Of a DNA stretch of 64,000 nucleotides, positions 2,585 through 58,963 are shown in pieces; positions within the stretch are counted from its first letter, which is position 1, and each line of letters opens with the position of its first letter. The position numbers and the translations under genes were made by a program. The notes beneath the pieces were generated by a model. It worked only from the letters and a program-made list of their open reading frames with translations, did not search any database and had not been told where the DNA came from. The DNA comes from an uncultured Bacilli bacterium. Lineage in GTDB: Bacteria; Bacillota_I; Bacilli_A; RF39; UBA660. The stretch lies in the NCBI GenBank assembly GCA_947627925.1, contig CANQXW010000002.1, positions 9,575 to 73,574 of the forward strand, in the 5' to 3' direction.

Positions 2585-3973
2585 TCACAAGTCTTGCTTA
2601 TTTCTTGTTAATCTCATAAATGGAGTTTGCTCTAAATCATTAGTCAACAATTTATCACAAAAATCCAAAAAGTAATTCTTTAATTCTAAGATTTCTGTTT
2701 TATCAAAAGATACTGGTAAGAACAATTTTTTCTTATTCATACGATAACGCTCTTCTTTAGTAAGCACTCGATCACCATAAGTATATTTAGTAATTATAGG
2801 GTTATCTACAAGATATTTTTTGGCTTGTAATAAATTTTGTAAAGCTCTAAAATTATGATTTTCAATAATTGCACTTAAAAGATCAATTTGTTCTAAAAAT
2901 GTATTTTTAAATTCAGCAACATAAACTGAATATCCCATATAAAATATTTCTTGAAAAAAACTTTGAATATCTTCAGCTTCCATCATAGTTTGTTTACGAA
3001 TATTCCATGAGTCTTCTGGGGCACCATAAAAAATTTTTTGCTCATTTTCTTTAGTATTGTTAATAACATAATTTTGGGCATATGTTAACTTTTCTTTCAA
3101 AATTGTCCAAACATACTCATATTCGTTATCATCTCTTGGTATTTCCCAATATTTAGGAGCATATTGAAAATAGAAATGCATCGGTTTCATAAATTCAAAT
3201 ATCATTTCTTTTTCTTCCTTGCTACAAGAATTTAAAAGATTAAGATATTTAATAAATAAATCATCATTTAAATGATAAAGACATAATTTTAAAACATCTT
3301 TCCTTGATAAATTTGGATATTCTTGTAAAATATCATCAATATTTATATCTAAAAGTTTACTATCCTTAAATGTGTCAATAAGCATATCTAAATTAAAACT
3401 TTCAACATTTTGATAATTATTTATGTATTCTTCATATAATGATTTAATATCCTCTAAATATTGGATCCAAAAATCATCAGTTAATTTTAAGGTGATGTGT
3501 TCTTCCGGGTTACTTTCTTTTGTAAAGACTACTAAATACTCAATATCTTCTTCTGTTGCTTTTGCGTCATAACTGTATCTTGTTAAGATCGTCCAAATAT
3601 TACAAGCAATAAAAATTGCTACTTCATTTTTATCTAATTTGTCATTATGCAAATTATAAATATTTCTAATAAATATTCTTTGGATTTTATTCGTTACATC
3701 ATGAAACTCAAAAGCATTATAAATACTGACAAAGCCGCTTTTTCCTTCCCTTTTTAAATAATCATTTATTTCATTATATAACTTTTTTTCATTATCATCT
3801 TTTAAAATATCAATGCTGCCCATATAGTATAATATATGAAAAGCTATAAATTCACAAAATTCTCTATTCTTTCTTAAAGGCCTTCTTCTACTTAATAAAC
3901 CATTATCTTCTTTTAATTCCATCAGAACCCTCCTAATTGCATTTATAATAGCATAAAGATAATATTTTTTCAA
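2585..3973 (-). CDS. hypothetical protein (462 aa), no domain recognised
   Basis: A long ORF in AT-rich DNA. Its stop overlaps the alternative yidD start (GTGA). Confidence 0.7.
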   Translation of the reverse strand: MKKYYLYAIINAIRRVLMELKEDNGLLSRRRPLRKNREFCEFIAFHILYYMGSIDILKDDNEKKLYNEINDYLKREGKSGFVSIYNAFEFHDVTNKIQRIFIRNIYNLHNDKLDKNEVAIFIACNIWTILTRYSYDAKATEEDIEYLVVFTKESNPEEHITLKLTDDFWIQYLEDIKSLYEEYINNYQNVESFNLDMLIDTFKDSKLLDINIDDILQEYPNLSRKDVLKLCLYHLNDDLFIKYLNLLNSCSKEEKEMIFEFMKPMHFYFQYAPKYWEIPRDDNEYEYVWTILKEKLTYAQNYVINNTKENEQKIFYGAPEDSWNIRKQTMMEAEDIQSFFQEIFYMGYSVYVAEFKNTFLEQIDLLSAIIENHNFRALQNLLQAKKYLVDNPIITKYTYGDRVLTKEERYRMNKKKLFLPVSFDKTEILELKNYFLDFCDKLLTNDLEQTPFMRLTRNKQDL

Positions 3974-48942: not shown

Positions 48943-49802
48943 TTTTCTTCACCTTTAATCATTAATACCATTAATTCATCTAAAGTTATTTTATCAATAA
49001 CCATTCCCTTATATTTTTTCTTTAAAGCATTTTTATTTTTAATTAAAACTTCATAATTGTATTTATTATTTTGATATTTCAAAATATCACTCTTATCTAA
49101 TTTCTTAAACTCTTCAATACTACATTTTAAAATACCATAACTATCCATAATATTAGAACCTAAATCATCTAAAACTATTTGGCCTTGATCAATAAAGACA
49201 ATGCGGTCTGCGACATTTTCTAAATCACTCGTAATATGCGTAGATAAAATTATCGTATGATCCTCACTTTGCATAAAGTTTAAAAAGATATCTAACACTT
49301 CTTTTCTTACAACGGGATCTAAACCACTTGTTGGCTCATCTAAAATTAATAATTTCGGATGATGAGCAATTGAGGTAATTATTTCTAATTTCTTTTTCAT
49401 TCCTTTAGAAAAAGTTTTAATAGTTTTATCTTTAGGAAGATTAAATTCTTCCAAATATTTAAAATATAATTCTTTGTCCCAATTAGCATAAATATTTTTC
49501 ATGATTAAATTAATATCTAAAGGAGTTAAGATTTCCGGAAAAAACATATCGTCTAAAACAACACCAATATCTTTTTTATTGACTTCTTCCCCTTCTAAAT
49601 AATCGCGGTTAAATAATTTAATCTTCCCCTTATCAGGTTTAATAATATTTAAAAGGAGTTTAATTAATGTGGTTTTACCAGCTCCATTTTCGCCAATTAA
49701 ACCAATTATTTCGCCTTTAGGAATATTTAGATTAATAGGTCCTAAAGAAAATTTATCATAATTTTTACTTAAATCTTTAATTTCAATTATATTCATATTC
49801 AC
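48939..49802 (-). CDS. ABC transporter ATP-binding protein
   Basis: Walker A GENGAGKTT, signature FSKGMKKK, Walker B LILDEPTSGLD. Confidence 0.9.
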   Translation of the reverse strand: MNMNIIEIKDLSKNYDKFSLGPINLNIPKGEIIGLIGENGAGKTTLIKLLLNIIKPDKGKIKLFNRDYLEGEEVNKKDIGVVLDDMFFPEILTPLDINLIMKNIYANWDKELYFKYLEEFNLPKDKTIKTFSKGMKKKLEIITSIAHHPKLLILDEPTSGLDPVVRKEVLDIFLNFMQSEDHTIILSTHITSDLENVADRIVFIDQGQIVLDDLGSNIMDSYGILKCSIEEFKKLDKSDILKYQNNKYNYEVLIKNKNALKKKYKGMVIDKITLDELMVLMIKGEEK

Positions 49803-50170
49803 TCTCCATAAAATATATCTAATAAACTCTTAAATTCTTTTTTTGAAATATTATTTTTCTTCGCTATATTAACTGCTTCCATTAAATGCTTCTCTAATTC
49901 TTTCTGAGCAGTTTCTTTAATTAATTCTTTATTTTTCGGTGCAATAAAAGTTCCTTTCCCTTGAACCTGAATAATATAGCCTTCATCTTCTAATTCATCA
50001 TACGTTTTTTTAATCGTCATAATACTTATCTTTATTTCTTCTGCTAAACTTCTAATGGAAGGAAGAGAATCATTTTCTTCTAAATTGCCCTCTAATATTT
50101 CTTCAATAATGGCTTTTTTAATTTGCTCATAAATCGGAACCATACTACTATTACTAATAATTATTTTCAT
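49799..50170 (-). CDS. GntR-family (YtrA-subfamily-like) transcriptional regulator
   Basis: PIYEQIKKAI...LPSIRSLAEEIKISIMTIKKTYDELEDEGYI. It is short with no effector domain and leads an ABC operon. The preferred start is MKIII at 50170. Confidence 0.8.
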   Translation of the reverse strand: MKIIISNSSMVPIYEQIKKAIIEEILEGNLEENDSLPSIRSLAEEIKISIMTIKKTYDELEDEGYIIQVQGKGTFIAPKNKELIKETAQKELEKHLMEAVNIAKKNNISKKEFKSLLDIFYGE

Positions 50171-50180
50171 ATCTACCTCA

Positions 50181-50217
50181 TATATAACACTATATAACAC
50201 TATATATCACTTGTCAA
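50181..50217 (-). promoter_or_regulatory. promoter of the GntR-ABC operon overlapped by three tandem decamers (candidate operator)
   Basis: On the minus strand, TTGACA (plus 50212-50217), a 17-nt spacer, then TATAGT (50189-50194). The plus strand carries TATATAACAC TATATAACAC TATATATCAC at 50181-50210. Confidence 0.45.
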
Positions 50218-50421
50218 TATATAATGTTTAAAAAAAATATTCTACCATATATTCAAAGGTAATTACTCCTTAAATATACAAGTAGAATATATGTATAGCC
50301 TTCAGCTTAGAAGTGAAAGCTTTTAGAATTGGGGTAAATATTATTATCTTCATTATTTATTATTTTTTTTCATTAATAATTATCATTTATTCATAACTCA
50401 AAATTATTTTGCAACTTGTGT

Positions 50422-50531
50422 AATAAAAAAACGCCTAATTCAGCAATTAACTACCCCAACTTAAATTCGGCAACATCCAACACAGAAATATTTGAATGTT
50501 CCTTTTTTATTGTATTCAAGTTTCCTTGAAC
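50422..50531 (-). ncRNA. candidate small RNA (orphan copy of the module at 56.8 kb)
   Basis: It lies downstream of the promoter at 50538-50567. It has the 5' hairpin UGUUCAAG-GAAA-CUUGAAUA, then AAAAAAGGAACAUUCAAAUAUU..., and ends at a GCCgAAUU...AAUUaGGC stem followed by GUUUUUUU. The boundaries are inferred. Confidence 0.3.
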
Positions 50532-50537
50532 AATAAT

Positions 50538-50567
50538 ATTATAGCATGTAATGATTTTTTCTGCCAA
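50538..50567 (-). promoter_or_regulatory. sigma-A-type promoter (extended -10), copy A
   Basis: On the minus strand, TTGGCA, an 18-nt spacer, then TGcTATAAT. Confidence 0.5.
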
Positions 50568-50596
50568 AAAAAGATACTCTATTTCTAAAGTATCTT
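50564..50596 (-). terminator. intrinsic terminator of surface-protein gene 1
   Basis: On the minus strand, AAGATACT-ttagaaatag-AGTATCTT followed by T7. Confidence 0.7.
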
Positions 50597-50731
50597 CTCT
50601 ATACTAATTTGTAAATAATTGTTTTACAATTACCACAAGTTCTGTGGAAAGGTTTGTGAGAATGAACTTTAGGGTGTTTGCGAGTCCCTAAAATTTATTT
50701 AAACAATTTATTTACCAATTTAGTAACTTAA

Positions 50732-52219
50732 TTAGTTGTTTTCTTTTCTTTTTGTAGAAAAGCTAACTGTTAAGGCACTTACTAGACCTAATCCAGCATA
50801 AACTAAGATATTATCATTAGTTTTTGGTACATCTGGCACATTAGGGTTTGTGTCTTCTGGAGTTGTTCCTGGAGTGTTTGCTTCGTCTCCAGTACTTCCT
50901 TGTTGATCTTCAGGTTTTTTATCTGGTGCTTGAGCGCCATTACCTACTACCACGTTTCCATTTTCATCAGTTGTGAATTCAGCGCTAGCTAATGCTTTAA
51001 CAAAATCATCATCTGAATATTTTTCAGAACCTAATCTTATATCATTACCAATTAATCCGCCAATGAATTCTCCACCTGAAATCATATTTTTATGTTGATC
51101 AAGGAAATTTTTATCTAAGTCTTCAATATGCATAACTGGTAAATATTTGCCGTTATTTCCTTTTCCACTTGTAAATTTGCCTCCTGAAACAGCTAATTTA
51201 GTATCTTCGGTTACTCCCTTGATATAAACAGCATATTCATTAGCCTTTTTAGCAGTAAATTCTCCACCTGAAATTGCTACATCAACATATTTTGGTCCAT
51301 TATAAGTAGTACCGTCATCATTTTGCATTGCAAGCACTGCAATTGCATGGTTAGATTCACCATCGTGAACTCCTTTTTGATGTTGTGCATCAGTAGCTGT
51401 ATAAGTACCACCAGTAATACTAACTTTACCACTTCTAACAGTAACAGCTTGAGCACCTTTTACAGTACCATTAATAGTCCAAATACCATATCCTGATGCG
51501 TATAAAGCTGTTGCTTGATTTGATGTATATGTACCAGCATTTACATTAATTACTGGTGCATTTTTATCATATGCAATAAATCCGTTAACCTTTATTACAT
51601 AGCCTTCAGTAGTCCAAGTACCATCCATATCAATTGTTGTATTCTTAGCTGTAGAAATTCTACTTGAAACCGGGCCATTAACTCCTAAAACTAAACCATA
51701 TCCAGTAGAAGTAACAGTAACATCCTTTCCAAAAGATACAGCAGTTGTAAGATCTGTATTATCATTTCCTGCAACTAATACAACAGCTGAATTATCATCA
51801 TCCGTGGTACCATTGCCTTTTAATTCAACTGAACCTTCTACCTTTAAAGTAGATCCAGCCTCAACTTTAATTAATGGAACACCTGCACCAGCAACATTTT
51901 TAATAATTCCGCTAGTTCCTGTTATAGTAACATTAGCATCTGATTTTATTATAATGCTGTGTCCATTGGCAACAGTAATAGTTTTACCATTTAAATCAAG
52001 AGTGATATCTTTATCAATATCTCTATCTACTGATAAACTTGATGCCTTTAATACTTTGACTGTATCACCTTTTTGAGCATGATCTAAAGCATCTGTTAAA
52101 GAAGTTTCACATACATCATTTAGATAAGCTTCACCCATACATTCAACTTCAGCTCTAACACCCATAGTCATTACTAACATACTTAGTAATGCGATTGCAA
52201 ACATTTTTAAACTTTTCAT
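50732..52219 (-). CDS. secreted, C-terminally anchored surface protein with beta-helix-like repeats, paralog 1
   Basis: Signal peptide MKSLKMFAIALLSMLVMTMGVRA. Repeated SGG(T/E/K)F(T/I) turns. A Pro/Glu/Asp linker. C-terminal VPKTNDN, a hydrophobic helix and KRKENN. Confidence 0.8.
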   Translation of the reverse strand: MKSLKMFAIALLSMLVMTMGVRAEVECMGEAYLNDVCETSLTDALDHAQKGDTVKVLKASSLSVDRDIDKDITLDLNGKTITVANGHSIIIKSDANVTITGTSGIIKNVAGAGVPLIKVEAGSTLKVEGSVELKGNGTTDDDNSAVVLVAGNDNTDLTTAVSFGKDVTVTSTGYGLVLGVNGPVSSRISTAKNTTIDMDGTWTTEGYVIKVNGFIAYDKNAPVINVNAGTYTSNQATALYASGYGIWTINGTVKGAQAVTVRSGKVSITGGTYTATDAQHQKGVHDGESNHAIAVLAMQNDDGTTYNGPKYVDVAISGGEFTAKKANEYAVYIKGVTEDTKLAVSGGKFTSGKGNNGKYLPVMHIEDLDKNFLDQHKNMISGGEFIGGLIGNDIRLGSEKYSDDDFVKALASAEFTTDENGNVVVGNGAQAPDKKPEDQQGSTGDEANTPGTTPEDTNPNVPDVPKTNDNILVYAGLGLVSALTVSFSTKRKENN

Positions 52220-52248
52220 CTTTTTTCCTCTTTCCTTTCTATGCGTTA

Positions 52249-52279
52249 ATTATACCCCCCCCCGTATTCGATTTGTCAA
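52249..52279 (-). promoter_or_regulatory. consensus promoter with a G9 tract inside its 19-nt spacer (gene 1)
   Basis: On the minus strand, TTGACA (plus 52274-52279), aatcgaatac+GGGGGGGGG (C-run at plus 52255-52263), then TATAAT (52249-52254). The ATG is about 30 nt downstream. The -35 lies in one arm of the 10-bp inverted repeat GATTTGTCAA/TTGACAAATC (52270-52308). Confidence 0.7.
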
Positions 52280-52544
52280 TACTTATTTTTGCTAATTTTT
52301 GACAAATCATTATTTTTTACAAAAAAGATATAATTTCTTTATATTATATTTATTATTTTATATTTTGATTACAATTTAAAAAATTATATACTATTATCGT
52401 GTAAATAAGGATCATTCTAAAATAAAAAGAGAAAATTCACTTAGTAACTTTCTCAATTTATTATAATCCTACTCCTATTTCTAGTTGTAATTTTATTACT
52501 TCTGAAATAAAAAAATTTGTATTCAAGTTTCCTTGAACAATAAT

Positions 52545-52574
52545 ATTATAGCATGTAATTACTTTTTCTGCCAA
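52545..52574 (-). promoter_or_regulatory. sigma-A-type promoter (extended -10), copy B
   Basis: TTGGCA, an 18-nt spacer, then TGcTATAAT. The GAAA-tetraloop hairpin is followed here by ACAAAUUUUUUUAUUU, so the transcript would probably be very short. Confidence 0.45.
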
Positions 52575-52603
52575 AAAAAGATACCTTATTTCTAAAGTAT
52601 CTT
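52571..52603 (-). terminator. intrinsic terminator of surface-protein gene 2
   Basis: A 7-bp stem AAGATAC/GTATCTT followed by T7. Confidence 0.65.
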
Positions 52604-52738
52604 CTCTATACTAATTTGTAAATAATTGTTTTACAATTACCACAAGTTTTGTGGAAAGGTTTGTGAGAATGAACTTTAGGGTGTTTGCGAGTCCCTAAAA
52701 TTTATTTAAACAATTTATTTACCAATTTAGTAGCTTAA

Positions 52739-54196
52739 TTAATTGTTTTCTTTTCTTTTTGCAGAAAAGCTAACTGTTAAGGCACTTACTAGACCTAAAC
52801 CAGCATAAACAAGAATGTTATCATTTGTTTTTGCAGGTTCGTCTGGTAAACGACCTGTTGTTCCGTCTGCTGGAGTGTTTGCGTCTCCAGTATTTCCTTG
52901 ATCTTCAGGTTTTGTTTGATCTTCTGGTTTTTGTTCATCAGCAGGGGTGTTAGTATTAACATCACCTTTAACTAATTCAGCAGTAAATTCTTCATCAGTA
53001 TATTTTACGCCATCTACAGTAATTTCACCAACTACACCGCCAGTGAATGTTCCACCAGTAATCATATCTTTATGATTTTCAAACATAAGTTGAGCACTAG
53101 CATTATTAACATACATAGCTGGTAATTGAGTTCCTTTAACTGAATCTTTACCACTTGTAAATGTACCACCACTGATAGCTAATTTAGATCCTTCAACTAT
53201 TTTTCCGACATATATTGCATACGCATCTTCAGTATTAGCAGTAAATGTACCACCTGAAACAATTAAATTCATATATTCTGGATGATATGTAGAACTATCT
53301 TTCTTTTCGTCTCCTAAGATAGCAATAGCATGATTACCTTCGCCATCGTGAACACCTTCACCGTTTTTTGTATTAGTAGCTGTATAACTTCCTCCACTAA
53401 TATCTACCTTACCACTTCTAACTGCAACAGCTTGAGAGCCTTTTACAGTCCCACCATCAATATCCCATTCAGCATATCCTGATGCATATAATGCAGTTGC
53501 TTTATTTGAAGTATATGTACCTTCAGCTATAGTAATCTTCACAGGATTAGAACTTTTAGTAATATATCCATTAACTTTTACAACATAAGCATCTGTAGTC
53601 CAGGTACCATTCATTGTAATATCAATATTTTGAGCCGTTGTAGTAGATCCATCACCAACAACTAAACCATGTAATTTTGAAGTAGCGACAACACCTTTTT
53701 CAAAATATACAGTAGTATTGTTAGTATTGATGTTTTTTACTCTTACAACAGCAGAGTCAATTTCAGTAGCATTATTGACTAAATTAACTGAATCTTCTAC
53801 CTTTAATGTAGCTCCAGAATTTACAGTAATCAATGATGTTTTAACTGCTGCAACATTTTCAACTGTACCAGTTCCTTTCAAAGTAAGTTTTGCACCATTT
53901 ACTATAATTCCAGCACCATTAGTAGTAGTAAATTTAAGGCTCTTGCCGTTTAAATCAATAGTAATATTTTGACTAATTTCAATGGAACTGCTTTCTTCAG
54001 CATCAGCTTCTAGTTTAATTGTATCGCCAATTCCTGCTCCTCTAATAGCTGTAGATAAATCTGCATAACAAGTAAGTTTACCATCAACTAGTCTCGAATA
54101 CTCATCGTTACTATCTGTACATGATGCAGCATGTACACCTGTTGCCATTACAGCAAATGCCATAACAGCGATTGCAAACATTTTTAAACTTTTCAT
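52739..54196 (-). CDS. secreted, C-terminally anchored surface protein with beta-helix-like repeats, paralog 2
   Basis: Signal peptide MKSLKMFAIAVMAFAVMATGVHA. Shared blocks are TWTT..YV.KVNG, GTYTSN.ATALYASGY, VRSGKV and GVHDGE.NHAIA. The C-terminus is PAKTNDNILVYAGLGLVSALTVSFSAKRKENN. Confidence 0.8.
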   Translation of the reverse strand: MKSLKMFAIAVMAFAVMATGVHAASCTDSNDEYSRLVDGKLTCYADLSTAIRGAGIGDTIKLEADAEESSSIEISQNITIDLNGKSLKFTTTNGAGIIVNGAKLTLKGTGTVENVAAVKTSLITVNSGATLKVEDSVNLVNNATEIDSAVVRVKNINTNNTTVYFEKGVVATSKLHGLVVGDGSTTTAQNIDITMNGTWTTDAYVVKVNGYITKSSNPVKITIAEGTYTSNKATALYASGYAEWDIDGGTVKGSQAVAVRSGKVDISGGSYTATNTKNGEGVHDGEGNHAIAILGDEKKDSSTYHPEYMNLIVSGGTFTANTEDAYAIYVGKIVEGSKLAISGGTFTSGKDSVKGTQLPAMYVNNASAQLMFENHKDMITGGTFTGGVVGEITVDGVKYTDEEFTAELVKGDVNTNTPADEQKPEDQTKPEDQGNTGDANTPADGTTGRLPDEPAKTNDNILVYAGLGLVSALTVSFSAKRKENN

Positions 54197-54225
54197 CTTT
54201 TTTCCTCTTTCCTTTCTATGCGTTA

Positions 54226-54256
54226 ATTATACCCCCCCCCGTATTCAATTTGTCAA
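54226..54256 (-). promoter_or_regulatory. consensus promoter with a G9 tract inside its 19-nt spacer (gene 2)
   Basis: TTGACA (plus 54251-54256), aattgaatac+G9 (C-run 54232-54240), then TATAAT (54226-54231). Confidence 0.7.
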
Positions 54257-54533
54257 TACTTATTTTTGCTAATTTTTGACAAATCACTGTTTTTTACAAA
54301 AAAGATATAATTTCTTTATATTATATTTATTATTTTATATTTTGATTACAATTTAAAATCATCATTAATTAAATACATATTTTCCAAATATTTTCATATA
54401 TTAAATAATGCAGCTTTTCTTAAAAACAGACAATTTATTAAAATTTTAGCCGCTTCGGGAGAAAATATCTCCCAAATATTTACTTTTTCGCTAAAAAATG
54501 CTAATATAAGTACAAAAAGGAGATGAAATACAT

Positions 54534-55733
54534 ATGTTAATTCAATTTAAATTTAAAAATCATAAATGTTTTTATGACGAAACTTTTTTAGACTTATTAG
54601 CCACTCAAGAAAAAAGGCATTTGGAATCGACAATTAATGTCAATGGTTATAATATCTTACCAGTAATTGCTATTCATGGAGCTAATGCTTCTGGAAAAAG
54701 TAGTGCCTTAGAGGCTTTAGATTTCATGTTTGAACTTATCAAGTATTCAAATAAAACTGATATTAAAAATAATTTACCAGCAAATCCCTTTTTATTTAGT
54801 CAAAAAAGTGCTGATGAAAATAGCGAATATGAAATCTCAATTTGCTTAGGTGATTATGAATATCGTTACGGATTCTCATTAAATAAACAACAAATTGATG
54901 AAGAATGGTTATATGTTAAAAAATTTGCTATTAATACTAAAGCTTCCCAAAAAACTATTTTTGAAAGATCAAATAATAAAGTTACCTTTGGCAAAAATTA
55001 TGCTAAATATGAAAAAACTTGGAATTTATTTGGAAAAGATATTATTATAAATACTAATAAACTATTAGTTTTAAGTAATTTAGCCATTAAAGAAGAAACT
55101 GGTATTTTAAGAGATATTTATGATTATATTTGTAAATTTGATTTTAAACTAGCTAGCGAATTTCAAAAAGCCAGTATTGATATCTTAACCCAAGACGATT
55201 CAATATTTCAAAAATTTCAAAATATTATTAATGAATTTGATCCTTGTTTACTAGGAATTGAAATTGTTCCCGTAGAAACAGAAGAGGGAGAAAAATATAT
55301 TATTAGTGGTATTCATAAAAATATTGATAATTCTAAATTACCAATTTCAATCCCTATTCATAAAGAATCTGATGGTACTATTCGTCTTTTTGGTATTATA
55401 CCAAGAATTTTAAAAAATTTAGAAAATGGGGGATTATTATGTATTGACGAAATAGATATAAAATTACACCCTTTATTATTTAAAAAAATTGTAAGTATGT
55501 ATATGGATAAAACAATTAATAAAAATAATGCCCAGTTAATTTATACTTCCCATTCAACATTTTTATTTAATAGTAATACTTTACGAAGAGATCAATTATA
55601 TCTTGTCGAAAAAGATAACACTGGGAAATCCAAGTTATACTCTTTGTCAGAATTTAGAGATTTACGAGCTGATGCCGATTATGAAAAAAAATATTTAACT
55701 GGTCAGTTCGGAGCCATTCCATATGAGAAATAG
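54534..55733 (+). CDS. ABC/SMC-like AAA_21-type ATPase (defence-associated family)
   Basis: Walker A GANASGKSS, signature-like ESDGTIRLF, Walker B LLCIDEIDIKLHP and H-loop YTSHS. It is followed by an RloB-like gene. Confidence 0.75.
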   Translation: MLIQFKFKNHKCFYDETFLDLLATQEKRHLESTINVNGYNILPVIAIHGANASGKSSALEALDFMFELIKYSNKTDIKNNLPANPFLFSQKSADENSEYEISICLGDYEYRYGFSLNKQQIDEEWLYVKKFAINTKASQKTIFERSNNKVTFGKNYAKYEKTWNLFGKDIIINTNKLLVLSNLAIKEETGILRDIYDYICKFDFKLASEFQKASIDILTQDDSIFQKFQNIINEFDPCLLGIEIVPVETEEGEKYIISGIHKNIDNSKLPISIPIHKESDGTIRLFGIIPRILKNLENGGLLCIDEIDIKLHPLLFKKIVSMYMDKTINKNNAQLIYTSHSTFLFNSNTLRRDQLYLVEKDNTGKSKLYSLSEFRDLRADADYEKKYLTGQFGAIPYEK

Positions 55734-55741
55734 GTAAAAAT

Positions 55742-56430
55742 ATGGGAAGTGACAATTTATATAAAAGACGTACTACCGAAAGGCGTCAAAGACAAGAAAA
55801 TATAAAAAAGAACGCTCTAGTAATTGGTTAATAGTATGTGAGGGAAAGAAAACAGAACCAAACTATTTTACAAACGCTATTGAAGAAATTAATAAAAATA
55901 TTGATAGTAAATATAAATTTAAAGTCAAAATTGTTGGTAAAGGAATGAATACCAAATCTTTAGTTAAAGCGGCAGATTTACAAATTGAAATTGATAAATA
56001 TTCTTATAATGAAATACCATATGGAAAAATATTTGTTGTATTTGATAAAGATAGCTTTGATGCTGATGATTTTGATGAAGCAATAAAAATGTGTGAAAAT
56101 AATGGGTATATTCCACTATGGTCTAACCAAGCAATTGAATTTTGGTTTTTATTACATTTTAATTATATATTTTCTAAAATGAATAGAACAGAATATGCTA
56201 AAAAAATTAATGAATATTTTAAAAAGAAAGGGCTTAATTATAAATATAAGAAAAATGACAAAGAAATATACAATTTACTTTGTAAATATGGTTCATTAGA
56301 AAAAGCCAAAACAAATGCTAAAAAAATTATGAAGGAGTTTCAAGGAGAAAAACCATCATTATCAGAAAGTTGTACAAATGTATATAAATTCTTTGATGAA
56401 ATTGATAGTCGATTAAAAGAATTAAAATAA
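55742..56430 (+). pseudogene. RloB-like (Toprim-like) protein gene, interrupted at an A_AAA_AAG / A6 run
   Basis: ATG at 55742 gives MGSDNLYKRRTTERRQRQENIKKNALVIG*. The -1 frame continues ERSSNWLIVCEGKKTEPNYF...VVFDKD...WSNQAIEFWFLLHF (RloB signatures) to 56430. The A-run is at 55804-55809; A7 or a -1 slip restores the frame. Confidence 0.7.
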
Positions 56431-56446
56431 TTATATATGATTAAAC

Positions 56447-56471
56447 AAAAAAGGCACACTCTGCCTTTTTA
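56447..56471 (+). terminator. intrinsic terminator after the RloB-like gene
   Basis: AAAAAAGGCA-cactc-TGCCTTTTT. Confidence 0.65.
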
Positions 56472-56475
56472 ATTT

Positions 56476-56577
56476 ATACTAATTTTGTAAATAATTGCTT
56501 GACAATTAATGCCATAATTTCTTTATGTTATATTGCTTATTTTATTTTTTGACTACATTTTAAAAAAGTTTCATAAT
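56476..56577. repeat. fused copy of the two cassette flanks (cassette-less junction)
   Basis: tatactaattttgtaaataattgcttgacaatta matches the 3' flank of units A/B (50601-50632). ataatttctttatgttatattgcttattttattttttgactacattttaaaaaa matches their 5' flank (52330-52381). Only about 6 nt (atgcc) lie between the two. Confidence 0.7.
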
Positions 56578-56592
56578 GTCCGCATATTTTTG

Positions 56593-56622
56593 TTGACTTC
56601 AAAAACGTTAGTTTGCTATACT
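56593..56622 (+). promoter_or_regulatory. promoter of the small hydrophobic peptide gene
   Basis: TTGACT, an 18-nt spacer, then TGcTATACT (extended -10). The 5' UTR is about 57 nt and carries the hairpin CTTGC-tgaatttc-GCAAG just before the SD AAAGGAGG. Confidence 0.55.
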
Positions 56623-56685
56623 CTTATTAGGAACATTTGAATAGTTGGGTGCTTGCTGAATTTCGCAAGAAAGGAGGCGATCTTT

Positions 56686-56769
56686 ATGAACAAGAAGGAT
56701 TTGTTAATCTTATCTCAAGTAGTAATTATCTTCCTTTTATTATTTTTACTATTTGTAGTATTAATATAA
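56686..56769 (+). CDS. 27-aa hydrophobic peptide, candidate type I toxin
   Basis: A strong SD, AAAGGAGG, lies 7 nt upstream of the ATG. The peptide MNKKDLLILSQVVIIFLLLFLLFVVLI is a polar N-terminus plus one TM helix. It is too short for the ORF track. Confidence 0.5.
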   Translation: MNKKDLLILSQVVIIFLLLFLLFVVLI

Positions 56770-56885
56770 ATTGAAAAGAACCTAACTCATCATCTATGAT
56801 TTAGGTTCAACCAAAATAAATTCTGCAACACTCAACACTAGAATATTTGAATGTTCCTTTTTTATTGTATTCAAGTTTCCTTGAC
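56770..56885 (-). ncRNA. convergent small RNA, candidate type I antitoxin
   Basis: It starts after the promoter at 56892-56920. It has the GAAA-tetraloop hairpin and AAAAAAGGAACAUUCAAAUAUUC.... It ends at the 8-bp terminator GAACCUAA/UUAGGUUC followed by UUUUC, right at the peptide stop codon. The U-run exists only on this strand. Confidence 0.4.
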
Positions 56886-56891
56886 ATATTC

Positions 56892-56920
56892 ATTATAACA
56901 TATAATTAATTTAATGACAA
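56892..56920 (-). promoter_or_regulatory. sigma-A-type promoter, copy C (drives the convergent small RNA)
   Basis: On the minus strand, TTGTCA (plus 56915-56920), a 17-nt spacer, then TATAAT (56892-56897). Confidence 0.55.
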
Positions 56921-56921
56921 A

Positions 56922-57848
56922 TTATTCTATATAAAACTCCCATAAATTCTTAATTTGACCTTTAAGACGACTATAATCCCAAAGAATATTACTTCTTATT
57001 TTACTATTAGGATCATTTACCTTTATTTTTCCATCTTGAACACTCACTAACACAATGTAATGGCCATTGATTGTAAAATCTCCTTTCCGCATACTACAAA
57101 TAATAGGATGTCCATTATTTAAAGCATTTTTAATACTTGCCTCATCTAAAGGAAGTTCTTTGGATTTAAGACCAAAATGATTCGCACCTTTCCGCATTAA
57201 ATCCCATGTTGTTCCACTACTTTCTAAATAATAACCATTTTCATAAGCGTATTTACTAACTTCATAAGGCGTATAATCACCGTTACCAGTTAAACCCGCA
57301 ATTACCATAGCTAGTGATGTTGGACCACAACCACTAATAGCAACATTACTACTGCCATATTTGCCATAACCCCATCTTTCATCCCATTGGAGTAACAACG
57401 GTATTTCTCCTTTTGTTACACTACCAATATTATCACTATAAACTTTGTCTTTCTTTTCTTGATAATTTAAGACAAAATCAGTAAGTTCAATATTTCTGGA
57501 TAAATCCTCTAATAATACTTCTGGATAGGTATTATAATTATCAATAATATCATTAATTCTTTTATCAATTTTACTGAAATTTTTTAATCTTTCCCTAATT
57601 GTTCCCTTTTCATACTTAAGCATCGAAACATCTTCATATGTTTGATATTTACTATAATCAATATTATCTTTATTTTCTTCATGATTATCATTATCAATAA
57701 TTACAGTATCAAGGGTTAACATTTTAAAATAATGATAATAAAAGAAAATTATGCCTCCGATTAATCCTAAAATAATTATTAATTTTAATATTTTTTTTCG
57801 TTTTTTTCTTCTTTTCATAAAACACCTCATTATAAAACCCATTTTCAT
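56922..57848 (-). CDS. membrane-anchored C39-like cysteine peptidase domain protein
   Basis: A basic N-terminus and TM helix. SGCGPTSLAMVIAG, and later GHYIVLV, are typical of the Peptidase_C39_2 family. The start is ambiguous. Confidence 0.7.
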   Translation of the reverse strand: MKMGFIMRCFMKRRKKRKKILKLIIILGLIGGIIFFYYHYFKMLTLDTVIIDNDNHEENKDNIDYSKYQTYEDVSMLKYEKGTIRERLKNFSKIDKRINDIIDNYNTYPEVLLEDLSRNIELTDFVLNYQEKKDKVYSDNIGSVTKGEIPLLLQWDERWGYGKYGSSNVAISGCGPTSLAMVIAGLTGNGDYTPYEVSKYAYENGYYLESSGTTWDLMRKGANHFGLKSKELPLDEASIKNALNNGHPIICSMRKGDFTINGHYIVLVSVQDGKIKVNDPNSKIRSNILWDYSRLKGQIKNLWEFYIE

Positions 57849-57907
57849 TGTAGCAAAACGAGAAAATGGGTTTATTAATAATGTCTTAGAAATTTCTTAA
57901 GATTTTC

Positions 57908-58963
57908 TTAAAGAGGCAATTTTATCGTAAATTTAGTTTCCTCTTCATCACTAGAGGCCGCTATATCGCCATGATGTTTTAAAATAATTTCTTTAGAAAT
58001 AGCCAGGCCTAAACCAGATCCTCCTAAAGATGTTTTACGGGCTTTATCAACTCGATAAAATTTAGTAAATATTTTAGTTAAATCTTCTTCTTTAATCTTA
58101 TCTCCTTTATTACTAATAGTTAAGTAAGCATATTTATTATCTATATAAGTAGTTATTAAAATAGATGTATCTTGATAACTATAATTTAAAGCATTTTTAA
58201 TTAAATTGCCAATAACTCTTGCTAAAAGATTAGAATCAGCTTTTAAAACTATTTTGTCTTTTTTTATAAATTTGATTTCTTTATGTAAACTTAAAGTAAG
58301 AGGATAAAAATCATCTATAATTTGTTCAACCATTAAATTAAGATTTATTTCTTCTTTTTGAAGTTTAACCTCATCTAAACTAAATTTAGTGATATCAAAT
58401 AATTCATTAATCAATTCTTCTAATCTTTCGGATTTACTTAAAGCAATATCTAAATATTTTTTTCTATTTTCTAAAGGTAAGTTATTTTCTTCTTTTAATA
58501 AATGTAAATAACCAATTAAACTAGTTAAAGGGGTTTTGATATCATGGGCTAAATAAACAATTAAATCGTTTTTCTTTTTCTCTTCTAAAAAAGCCTTTTC
58601 TTTAATTTTATTTAAACTTATCTCAATATCTTTTAATTCATCGGGAAGGCGAATATATTCATTTGGAATTAAAAGTTTACTACTTCCTAAAACAATTGCG
58701 TCAATATAAGCAAGGGTTTTTCTTAAATGATAAAAAGATATAATGGCGACTCCAATTAACCAGACAATAACTTCAATAATAACATTATCTTTAATCATTT
58801 TTAAAAATTGATAGGTTTTATCGTAAGGTTGCCAGACATAAGATTCACAATAAGTTCTCGCAATAATATAGATAAGAAGAAAGATACAAGTATAAATAGT
58901 TGTACTTAAAATTATTTTTTTAACTAATTTTTTTGTTAACGCATTTCCATATTTATTTTTCAA
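57908..58963 (-). CDS. sensor histidine kinase (VanS-like architecture)
   Basis: Two TM helices, H-box LAHDIKTPLTSL, N-box NLIKNALNYS, and GSGLGLAISKEI. Confidence 0.85.
   Translation of the reverse strand: MKNKYGNALTKKLVKKIILSTTIYTCIFLLIYIIARTYCESYVWQPYDKTYQFLKMIKDNVIIEVIVWLIGVAIISFYHLRKTLAYIDAIVLGSSKLLIPNEYIRLPDELKDIEISLNKIKEKAFLEEKKKNDLIVYLAHDIKTPLTSLIGYLHLLKEENNLPLENRKKYLDIALSKSERLEELINELFDITKFSLDEVKLQKEEINLNLMVEQIIDDFYPLTLSLHKEIKFIKKDKIVLKADSNLLARVIGNLIKNALNYSYQDTSILITTYIDNKYAYLTISNKGDKIKEEDLTKIFTKFYRVDKARKTSLGGSGLGLAISKEIILKHHGDIAASSDEEETKFTIKLPL

What the first reader, a model, noticed from the sequence alone, without database searches (positions are those of the whole stretch)
56476..56577. 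Cassette-less junction: the two cassette flanks occur fused 2 kb downstream
At 56476-56577 there are about 33 nt matching the sequence just 3' of each surface-protein cassette (tatactaatttgtaaataattgttttacaatta). About 6 nt later come about 55 nt matching the sequence just 5' of each cassette promoter region (ataatttctttatattatatttattattttatattttgattacaatttaaaa). In units A and B these two segments are separated by about 1.7 kb, comprising the structured 3' UTR, the gene and the G9 promoter.

This looks like an empty or excised site. It implies the gene-plus-promoter block behaves as a discrete insertable or deletable module. Both flanks contain a short shared core, TTACAATT, which could be a recombination crossover. 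No recombinase gene is visible in the window.
Basis: inference. Interest (0 to 1): 0.6.

Follow-up and report, generated by a model that had tools for sequence, protein, structure and literature searches.

The report
Scar of a lost surface-protein gene
The two ends of a variable surface-protein gene unit sit fused here with the gene itself missing. A sister species still has the gene at this exact spot, so this is an ordinary deletion scar in a gene array that grows and shrinks, not a jumping-gene docking site.

Summary
Positions 56475-56508 match the 33-nt segment 3' of cassettes A and B (2 substitutions, 1 indel). After 5 nt (atgcc), 56514-56567 match the 54-nt segment upstream of each cassette promoter (48/54).

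Neither segment is a generic AT-rich repeat. The genome holds 3 copies of flank3 and 6 of flank5, all tied to cassettes.

In the closest species genome (G001), the same position next to the C39-peptidase gene holds an intact cassette between these two segments. G055 has no array at all between the C39 and GntR-type genes.

The mobile-module reading fails:
- Flank3 is part of the cassette's own conserved, structured 3' UTR, and it is joined to UTR plus gene in 21 of 22 copies.
- Flank5 is continuous with the promoter in about 30 copies.
- TTACAATT is neither at the breakpoints nor conserved.
- No recombinase gene lies on either array contig.

Best reading: a decaying internal-deletion relic of a third cassette. 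The array consists of poly-G phase-variable surface-protein genes interleaved with type I toxin-antitoxin-like modules.

The parts
56475..56508 (-). flank3_J, an orphan copy of the distal 3' UTR segment of a cassette. In intact units this segment is the 3' strand of the long-range closing helix, and it also contains a local palindrome.
   Evidence: It has 2 substitutions and 1 indel against the A and B copies. Its pairing partner is missing, and the local fold is not better than shuffles (z = -1.1).
56509..56513 (.). 5-nt filler 'atgcc' at the deletion joint.
   Evidence: Read directly. The 10-mer AATGCCATAA that spans it also occurs in the signal-peptide coding region of gene B and of the C15 genes (roughly p = 0.014). 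This is a weak lead for a templated or two-step deletion.
56514..56567 (-). flank5_J, the AT-rich far-upstream region of a cassette promoter. Here it has no promoter on its left and still abuts the TA toxin promoter on its right.
   Evidence: 48/54 to copy A and 51/54 to G001 copy X. The same flank5-to-TA-promoter arrangement is seen in G001.
56448..56470 (.). Bidirectional terminator hairpin of the RloB gene. It stands where intact units have the cassette's own terminator.
50732..52219 (-). Surface-protein gene A (495 aa). It has a signal peptide, a variable core and a PKTND-type C-terminal anchor.
   Evidence: No Pfam match.
52739..54196 (-). Surface-protein gene B (485 aa).
50567..50731 (-). 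Structured 3' UTR plus terminator of cassette A. flank3_A is 50600-50632.
   Evidence: Fold energy -42.2 kcal/mol, z = -5.3. A consensus structure is shared by 12 copies from 5 species genomes.
52574..52738 (-). Structured 3' UTR plus terminator of cassette B. flank3_B is 52607-52639.
52249..52383 (-). Cassette A promoter (TTGACA, then a 19-nt spacer that includes G9, then TATAAT, at 52249-52279), the promoter-distal segment, and flank5_A (52330-52383).
   Evidence: This block is continuous in about 30 copies across species.
54226..54358 (-). Cassette B promoter (G9 spacer) and flank5_B (54307-54358).
54534..56430 (+). AAA_21 ATPase gene plus RloB-like gene (N-terminus out of frame). This gene pair is absent from the closest relatives. 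It occupies the slot between flank5_B and flank3_J where other units carry a TA module.
   Evidence: Pfam. Absent from G001 and G009; only G042 has a full-length match, at 73% (G008, G005 and G006 match only in part).
56580..56920 (+). Type I toxin-antitoxin-like module: a 27-aa hydrophobic peptide gene with a convergent antisense promoter. It forms the right-hand neighbour of the scar.
52384..52540 (+). Degraded TA' module between cassettes A and B. The start codon and the promoter are lost.
   Evidence: Homologous to the intact TA' of G001 (MTKREVSQFIVILLLFLVVILLLLK).
50226..56921 (.). The whole variable array region. It lies between the promoter/operator of the GntR-type operon and the stop codon of the C39-peptidase gene.
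   Evidence: In G055 these two points are only about 45 nt apart.

Best explanation
The junction is a relic, made of the two extremities of one surface-protein transcription unit whose interior has been lost. The missing part is about 1.65 kb: core promoter with its poly-G tract, the gene, and the proximal 3' UTR hairpins.

The unit belonged to a tandem array. In that array, phase-variable surface-protein genes (G9 in the -35/-10 spacer) alternate with type I toxin-antitoxin-like modules. The array sits in a variable slot between a GntR-type operon and a C39-peptidase gene.

Arrays of this family expand and contract between species by duplication, unit loss and gene conversion. Here one unit was removed by an illegitimate internal deletion, possibly in two steps or with templated filler, which left 'atgcc' at the joint. 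The neighbouring TA slot is now occupied by a gene pair absent from the closest relatives (AAA_21 ATPase plus RloB).

What survives:
- flank3, the orphaned 3' strand of the 3' UTR closing helix, which is now drifting.
- flank5, the AT-rich upstream region, which still adjoins the next TA promoter.

What is shown and what is inferred:
- Shown: the sequence relationships, occupancy in the sister species, the empty backbone in G055, the membership of flank3 in the UTR fold, and the absence of a linked recombinase.
- Inferred: the direction of change (loss rather than gain), the deletion mechanism, and whether the loss occurred in place or in DNA acquired together with the gene pair.
For: 1. Bipartite match, specific to cassettes.

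2. G001 is the closest species genome (C39 protein 93% identical). Its order is flank3, 3' UTR hairpins, 515-aa gene, poly-G promoter, flank5, TA promoter, TA, C39. The window has flank3, atgcc, flank5, TA, C39. The left end of the array is also shared: GntR operator, TA, flank3 (L029).

3. G055 has C39 and the GntR-type operon about 45 nt apart, so the whole array is accessory.

4. flank3 is conserved at 31-33 of 33 positions in 22 copies from 6 of 42 species of the genus. It is joined to UTR plus gene in every copy except J.

5. In single-sequence and consensus folds flank3 pairs with the stop-proximal segment (19 pairs kept in 12 of 12 sequences; z = -5.3). In J that partner is gone and the fold is unremarkable.

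6. Promoter and flank5 are continuous in about 30 copies from 8 species.

7. flank3 is identical in A, B and three G001 copies, but J has 3 changes, which fits relaxed constraint.

8. No tyrosine or serine recombinase gene lies on contig C2 or C15.
Against: - Only one close genome shows the occupied state. So polymorphism within the species, or circular intermediates, could not be looked for.
- A second promoter-less flank5 (contig C15:17493-17551) starts within 2 nt of the same boundary, and it also lies beside inserted foreign-looking DNA. G001 has an intact cassette at that position too. Two losses with nearly the same right-hand breakpoint hint at a non-random boundary.
- The 5-nt filler is not explained with confidence.
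- flank5_J is no more diverged from the G001 type than flank5_A is (3 changes each), so decay is visible only in flank3.
- The genome is a fragmented metagenome-type assembly.
Confidence: 0.77

Rival explanations
1. One reading: the promoter-plus-gene block is a discrete mobile cassette. It excises or inserts by site-specific recombination between short cores (TTACAATT) in the two flanks, and the junction is the regenerated empty attachment site.
For: - Occupied versus empty states exist at the same position in sister species.
- flank3 contains a palindrome that keeps its symmetry through a double change in G049 (TTGTTAA/TTAACAA versus TTGTAAA/TTTACAA).
- Two promoter-less flank5 copies share a left boundary within 2 nt.
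Against: - The core is not at the flank5 breakpoint. It is mutated in both halves of J, and the G001 flank5 copies lack it.
- Recombination between the two cores would remove flank5, which is instead retained.
- A 5-nt non-templated joint is atypical of conservative site-specific recombination.
- flank3 is internal to the transcript and pairs with UTR sequence.
- J is the only fused copy among 22.
- There is no linked recombinase.
- J is about 10% diverged from the active copies, so it is not a recent excision product.
Confidence: 0.07
2. The junction was created by the event that brought in the AAA_21/RloB gene pair. Incoming DNA from another strain's array carried a flank3 fragment and recombined at or near flank5, duplicating it. 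On this view no third cassette ever stood at this position in this lineage.
For: - The gene pair fills exactly the slot between flank5_B and flank3_J, and G001 and G009 lack it.
- If G001 contigs C54 and C41 abut, G001 has two cassettes here, the same number as the window.
- The C15 array shows a parallel case: an inserted 456-aa gene beside a promoter-less flank5.
Against: - It still needs a cassette 3' end stripped of its gene, so it only moves the deletion elsewhere.
- flank5_J together with its TA promoter is of the ancestral, G001-like type in its original context.
- Homology to the G042 gene pair stops at the coding regions, so no transported flanks can be shown.
Confidence: 0.12
3. Assembly artefact: a collapsed or chimeric join of repeat copies in a short-read metagenome bin.
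For: The assembly is fragmented (56 contigs). Cassette repeats break contigs in G001.
Against: - Both halves carry private substitutions absent from every other copy, plus a unique 5-nt joint. The 15-mer across the joint is unique in the genome.
- The surrounding sequence is unique on both sides.
Confidence: 0.03

Closest known systems
Mycoplasma hyorhinis vlp-type families (also M. mycoides Vmm and M. capricolum Vmc): tandem surface-protein genes, each with its own promoter carrying a slippage-prone tract between -35 and -10
   Same: - Same-orientation tandem genes, each with its own promoter.
- A homopolymer in the promoter spacer (G9, giving a 19-nt spacer).
- Highly conserved 5' region, signal peptide and C-terminus with divergent cores.
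- Gene number differs between related genomes.
- Basis: for this locus; my own knowledge for the vlp system.
   Different: - The proteins are not lipoproteins. They have a signal-peptidase-I-type leader and a sortase-like PKTND anchor.
- The tract is poly-G, not poly-A or TA.
- Units are interleaved with type I TA-like modules.
- Units carry a long, conserved, structured 3' UTR.
- The host is an uncultured small-genome, walled gut bacterium.
Recombinase-driven surface-antigen loci: M. agalactiae vpma/Xer1, M. bovis vsp, M. pulmonis vsa/HvsR
   Same: A clustered multigene family of variable surface proteins with short conserved sequences at unit borders.
   Different: Those systems have a tyrosine recombinase gene next to the locus, recombination sites in the 5' UTRs, a single promoter, and inversions between oppositely oriented genes (PMC2268961). 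Here there is no linked recombinase, every gene has its own promoter, all genes face one way, and the conserved border segments are a 3' UTR strand and a far-upstream region.
Integron gene cassettes (attC at the 3' end of each cassette)
   Same: A palindromic element at the 3' end of each unit; arrays of units in one orientation; units can be missing.
   Different: Integron cassettes are usually promoterless and depend on IntI, attI and a common promoter. Here the units carry their own promoters and no integrase is linked. In addition, the palindrome lies inside a larger RNA fold, and only one fused junction exists.
Gene remnants left by contraction of tandem contingency-gene arrays (ordinary illegitimate or unequal recombination)
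   Same: The ends of a unit are retained and the interior is lost. The relic is diverged from active copies, which remain homogenised among themselves.
   Different: Nothing essential. This is the category the junction falls into.

Membership tests
Site-specific-recombination surface-antigen switch (vpma/vsp/vsa type) | Recombinase gene encoded next to the locus | tested here: not met
   PF00589 hits lie only on contigs C13, C17 and C35. PF00239 hits lie only on C35, C48 and C53. None is on C2 or C15.
Site-specific-recombination surface-antigen switch (vpma/vsp/vsa type) | A conserved recombination site at the same place in every unit (the 5' UTR), with crossovers inside it | tested here: not met
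   The proposed core, TTACAATT, is about 45 nt from the flank5 breakpoint. It is mutated in J and the G001 flank5 copies lack it.
Site-specific-recombination surface-antigen switch (vpma/vsp/vsa type) | One active promoter with silent genes; inversions between oppositely oriented genes | tested here: not met
   Every gene has its own TTGACA-G9-TATAAT promoter, and all genes are on the same strand.
Integron cassette array | IntI integrase plus attI next to the array; promoterless cassettes ending in attC | tested here: not met
   No tyrosine recombinase on the array contigs. The cassettes have promoters. The 3' palindrome is part of a larger UTR fold.
Slipped-strand phase-variable tandem surface-protein family (vlp-like) | Homopolymer or short repeat within the promoter spacer of each gene | tested here: met
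   G9 in a 19-nt spacer in all four G000 cassettes that carry this promoter. Actual length switching was not observed.
Slipped-strand phase-variable tandem surface-protein family (vlp-like) | Conserved leader and ends with divergent cores, and variable gene number between genomes | tested here: met
   Identity to protein A across 12 paralogues is 21-52%, with a nearly invariant signal peptide and anchor. Gene number at this site is 2 plus the scar in G000, at least 2 in G001 and 0 in G055.
Slipped-strand phase-variable tandem surface-protein family (vlp-like) | Lipoprotein signal (lipobox cysteine) | tested here: not met
   The leaders end VRA|E and VHA|A, with no lipobox. The C-terminus has a PKTND motif, a hydrophobic helix and a KRKENN tail.
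Deletion relic of a cassette | The orthologous position is occupied by an intact unit in a close relative, with colinear flanks | tested here: met
   G001 contig C41. Right flank: the stretch from the TA promoter through the TA module into the C39 gene (window 56570-57300) is 84% identical over 731 nt.
Deletion relic of a cassette | The retained pieces are normally integral parts of the unit | tested here: met
   flank3 is attached to UTR plus gene in 21 of 22 copies. flank5 is continuous with the promoter in about 30 copies.
Deletion relic of a cassette | Presence/absence polymorphism or read-level support within the species | not testable with these tools
No exact-protein contigs were on record. 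The best metagenome relatives are only 56-63% identical.

The most novel reading that the evidence does not exclude
The left edge of flank5 (the promoter-distal/flank5 boundary) is a preferred recombination or integration boundary. In this genome both arrays of the family lost their terminal cassette with right-hand breakpoints within 2 nt of each other, and each loss lies beside foreign-looking plus-strand genes (AAA_21/RloB here; a 456-aa gene on contig C15). On this reading flank5 and flank3 act as conserved linkers between interchangeable modules (cassette, TA variants, the AAA_21/RloB pair and other inserted genes), which would make the array a landing pad for exchanging modules.
Probability: 0.1. 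Interest if true: 0.55.

Novelty: new member of a known kind. Interest (0 to 1): 0.3.

Why it matters
- The scar is direct evidence that arrays of this newly seen surface-protein family gain and lose whole units between closely related gut species, in addition to their probable poly-G switching.
- It also helped define the real unit. The cassette includes a long 3' UTR fold that is more conserved than the coding sequence, and cassettes alternate with type I toxin-antitoxin-like modules that may stabilise the array.
- By itself the junction is an ordinary relic and reveals no new mechanism.

Tried and rejected

2. Same-species contigs:
- An exact-protein look-up of the C39 protein found nothing.
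- A metagenome scan returned only relatives at 56-63% identity.

3. Rfam scans:
- On 49500-58000 there was nothing relevant.
- On the C15 small-RNA region there was nothing above noise.

4. Hybrid-recombination idea. BLAST aligned the whole junction to the promoter-distal-plus-flank5 region of G001 cassettes at 77-82%. That suggested J-left might be a promoter-distal segment, or a flank3/promoter-distal recombinant.
- By hand, the similarity of the left half is only about 67%. It rests on a shared TAATT..T..ACAA-like motif.
- The flank3 match is about 91% (31 identities over a 34-column alignment).
- Rejected as the origin of J. The motif similarity is recorded as unexplained.

5. flank5 as an independent genus-wide element. 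The many weak hits start anywhere between query positions 107 and 158, so they are AT-rich noise. Rejected.

6. G009 as a third comparison. Its C39 gene is split at a contig end, and the candidate contig (C112) turned out to be an unrelated TA copy next to a tRNA gene.

7. The closest relatives of this TA copy (G009 C19 at 95%, G001 C4 at 91%) are stand-alone modules with no flank5. So flank5 is not part of the TA element.

8. The AATGCCATAA remnant is kept only as a weak lead.

Full report
**Observation.** The junction is real.
- Read directly, positions 56475-56508 are TATACTAATTTTGTAAATAATTGCTTGACAATTA.
- Five bases (atgcc) follow.
- Then 56514-56567 read ATAATTTCTTTATGTTATATTGCTTATTTTATTTTTTGACTACATTTTAAAAAA.
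- The first segment matches the 33 nt at 50600-50632 and 52607-52639 with two substitutions and one inserted T.
- The second matches 52330-52383 at 48/54 and 54307-54360 at 46/54.
- In units A and B the two segments lie about 1.7 kb apart. Between them are the proximal 3' UTR, the gene and the promoter.
- Against the whole 1.16-Mb assembly, flank3 occurs only at these three places. flank5 occurs six times: three here and three on contig C15. All other hits are 13-19-nt AT-rich noise.
- Both halves of the junction carry private substitutions, and the 15-mer across the joint is unique. A chimeric assembly of copies A and B is therefore very unlikely.

**What the flanks are.** The genes lie on the minus strand.
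- Each encodes a protein of about 490 aa with a cleavable signal peptide, a variable core and a conserved C-terminus: PKTND, a hydrophobic helix and KRKENN.
- Each gene has its own promoter: TTGACA, a 19-nt spacer ending in G9, then TATAAT.
- Downstream of the stop codon lies a 3' UTR of about 130 nt followed by a terminator hairpin with a T-run.
- flank3 lies inside this UTR, upstream of the terminator.
- The UTR of cassette A folds at -42.2 kcal/mol, with z = -5.3 against shuffles. In the model, flank3 is the 3' strand of a long-range helix. That helix pairs with the segment just after the stop codon and encloses two conserved hairpins.
- A consensus fold of 12 copies from five species genomes keeps the same helix, with 19 pairs intact in all 12. 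The sequences are so conserved that covariation is minimal, so the fold is well predicted but not proven.
- In the junction the pairing partner is gone, and the local fold is no better than shuffles (z = -1.1).
- flank5 is the AT-rich region upstream of the promoter. In about 30 copies across eight species it is continuous with the promoter.

**Comparison with relatives.**
- The neighbouring C39-peptidase gene (Pfam) identifies G001 as the closest available species (93% protein identity).
- Read in the window's orientation, G001 contig C41 runs: flank5, TA' module, terminator, flank3 (identical to A and B), 3' UTR hairpins, a 515-aa family member, poly-G promoter, flank5, TA promoter, TA module, C39 gene.
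- The window runs: flank3, atgcc, flank5, TA promoter, TA module, C39 gene.
- So the site that is empty here is occupied in the sister species, between the same two segments.
- The left end of the array is shared as well: GntR-type operator, TA-like module, flank3 (G001 contig C54).
- In the more distant G055, the C39 gene and the GntR-type operon are about 45 nt apart. Homology to the window breaks at 50225/50226 and near 56921. The whole 6.7-kb array is therefore accessory.
- Across 42 species of the genus, flank3 occurs in six, in 22 copies, at 31-33 of 33 identity. It is always attached to UTR plus gene except in this junction.
- A BLAST of the junction across the genus found no second fused copy.

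**Interpretation.**
- The junction consists of the two extremities of one cassette transcription unit whose interior was lost. It is a deletion relic.
- The active copies in this genome (A, B, and C15a and C15b) are homogenised with each other. flank5_J is closer to the G001 type (51/54) than to A (48/54), and it keeps the ancestral flank5-to-TA-promoter arrangement.
- flank3 is identical in A, B and three G001 copies, but flank3_J has three changes, one of which spoils its palindrome. That fits an orphaned piece that is drifting.
- The slot to the left of flank3_J holds a TA module and the cassette terminator in other units. Here it holds an AAA_21 ATPase gene and an RloB-like gene. This pair is absent from G001 and G009; within the genus only G042 has a full-length match, at 73%, with partial matches in three further species.
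- The joint carries five unexplained bases. The 10-mer AATGCCATAA across it also occurs in the signal-peptide coding region of gene B and of the C15 genes (roughly p = 0.014). This hints at a two-step deletion or templated filler. I treat that as a lead only.
- Whether the loss happened in place or in DNA that arrived with the gene pair cannot be decided.

**Tests of the mobile-module model.**
- The proposed TTACAATT core is adjacent to the breakpoint only in flank3. In flank5 it lies about 45 nt away.
- Recombination between the two cores would have removed flank5, which is in fact retained.
- The core reads TGACAATT and CTACATTT in the junction itself, and TTACATTT in the G001 flank5 copies.
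- All genes face the same way and each has its own promoter.
- The genome's three tyrosine-recombinase and three serine-recombinase genes lie on other contigs: C13, C17, C35, C48 and C53.
- By contrast, the recombinase-driven mycoplasma systems have the recombinase gene next to the locus, sites in the 5' UTRs and a single promoter (PMC2268961).
So the observation and the 'empty site' idea stand, but the mechanism does not.

**An unexplained parallel.**
- Contig C15 carries the second array of the family. It is orthologous to the large G001 C6 array, with a PBP gene and two further ORFs of matching length (317/318 and 145 aa) on the right.
- Its last flank5 (C15:17493-17551) also lacks a promoter. 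It starts within 2 nt of the same boundary as flank5_J (query positions 133 and 131). It also lies beside an inserted plus-strand gene (456 aa, no clear family).
- In G001 the orthologous flank5 belongs to an intact cassette and abuts the same small-RNA promoter.
- Two terminal-cassette losses with almost the same right-hand breakpoint could be chance. I estimate roughly 5-10%, given the short interval in which a breakpoint can fall. They could also mark a preferred boundary. This is the basis of the novel case, which I rate at about 10%.

**Comparison with what is known.**
- Functionally, the family resembles vlp-type contingency families: tandem genes, each with a slippage-prone tract in its promoter spacer, and gene numbers that differ between genomes.
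- It differs in protein type (sortase-like anchor, no lipobox), in tract type (poly-G), in the interleaved TA-like modules and in the conserved structured 3' UTR.
- The junction itself belongs to the ordinary class of remnants left by array contraction.

**Limits.**
No within-species or read-level evidence could be obtained.
- The direction of change (loss rather than gain) is inferred from the fact that both retained pieces are integral parts of intact units everywhere else.

Noticed in passing
window 56570-56600; also genome contigs C1, C5, C10, C11, C12, C15, C32: A conserved motif, (T)ATAATGTCCGCATATTTTTGTTGAC, sits immediately upstream of and into the -35 box of about 14 promoters. Those promoters drive type I toxin-like peptide mRNAs and a multi-copy small RNA. 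It looks like a shared operator or an unusually extended promoter element.
   Followed up: partly
L001 12550-12860 (= C15:17553-17860); also C5:41753-42737 and C10:30582-30900; G001 L120 1180-2860: A multi-copy structured small RNA of about 75 nt (AATTAGAAAAGGGCCGGTCGTGGCGC...GCGGTYGGCCCTTTTTT), often in tandem pairs. In G001 each copy precedes an ORF on the opposite strand (one of them 191 aa). There is no Rfam family. It could be an RNA-protein toxin-antitoxin or some other repeat unit.
   Followed up: partly
window 50567-50731 and 52574-52738 (minus strand): The 3' UTR of the cassettes is more conserved across species than the coding sequence. It is nearly invariant over about 130 nt in five species genomes, whereas the proteins are 21-52% identical. 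It folds strongly (z = -5.3), and its first hairpin loop (CTCGCAAACA) is also kept in the diverged C15-type UTR, where the stem covaries (tttaggg/ccctaaa versus ttgaaga/tcttcaa).
   Followed up: partly
window 50226-56921 versus L118 (G055:C13) 3199-3289: The whole array is an insertion relative to G055, where the C39-peptidase gene and the GntR-type operon are about 45 nt apart. The direct-repeat operator (ATAACACTATATAACACTATATATCAC) in front of the GntR-type gene is conserved in both.
   Followed up: yes
window 52285-52329 versus 50600-50632: The promoter-distal segment (CTAATTTTTGACAAATCATTATTTTTTACAAAAA) and flank3 (CTAATTTGTAAATAATTGTTTTACAATTA) share a repeated TAATT..T..ACAA-like motif. 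That was enough for BLAST to align the whole junction to G001 promoter regions at 77-82%. This could be a shared protein-binding motif at both ends of the unit, or AT-rich coincidence.
   Followed up: partly
window 55742-56430: The RloB-like gene matches only profile positions 46-195. Its N-terminal part lies in another frame upstream, so it is a frameshifted gene or carries a homopolymer sequencing error.
   Followed up: no
genome-wide; G001 has at least 15 copies: The type I TA-like module is a highly repeated unit with sharp ends. Its closest relatives lie in unrelated contexts in other species (95% in G009 C19, 91% in G001 C4). This suggests that it moves or is exchanged independently of the cassettes.
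   Followed up: partly
contigs C2 and C15: All four cassettes with this promoter in the genome carry exactly G9, which gives a 19-nt spacer that is longer than optimal. No length heterogeneity is visible in the assembly.
   Followed up: partly
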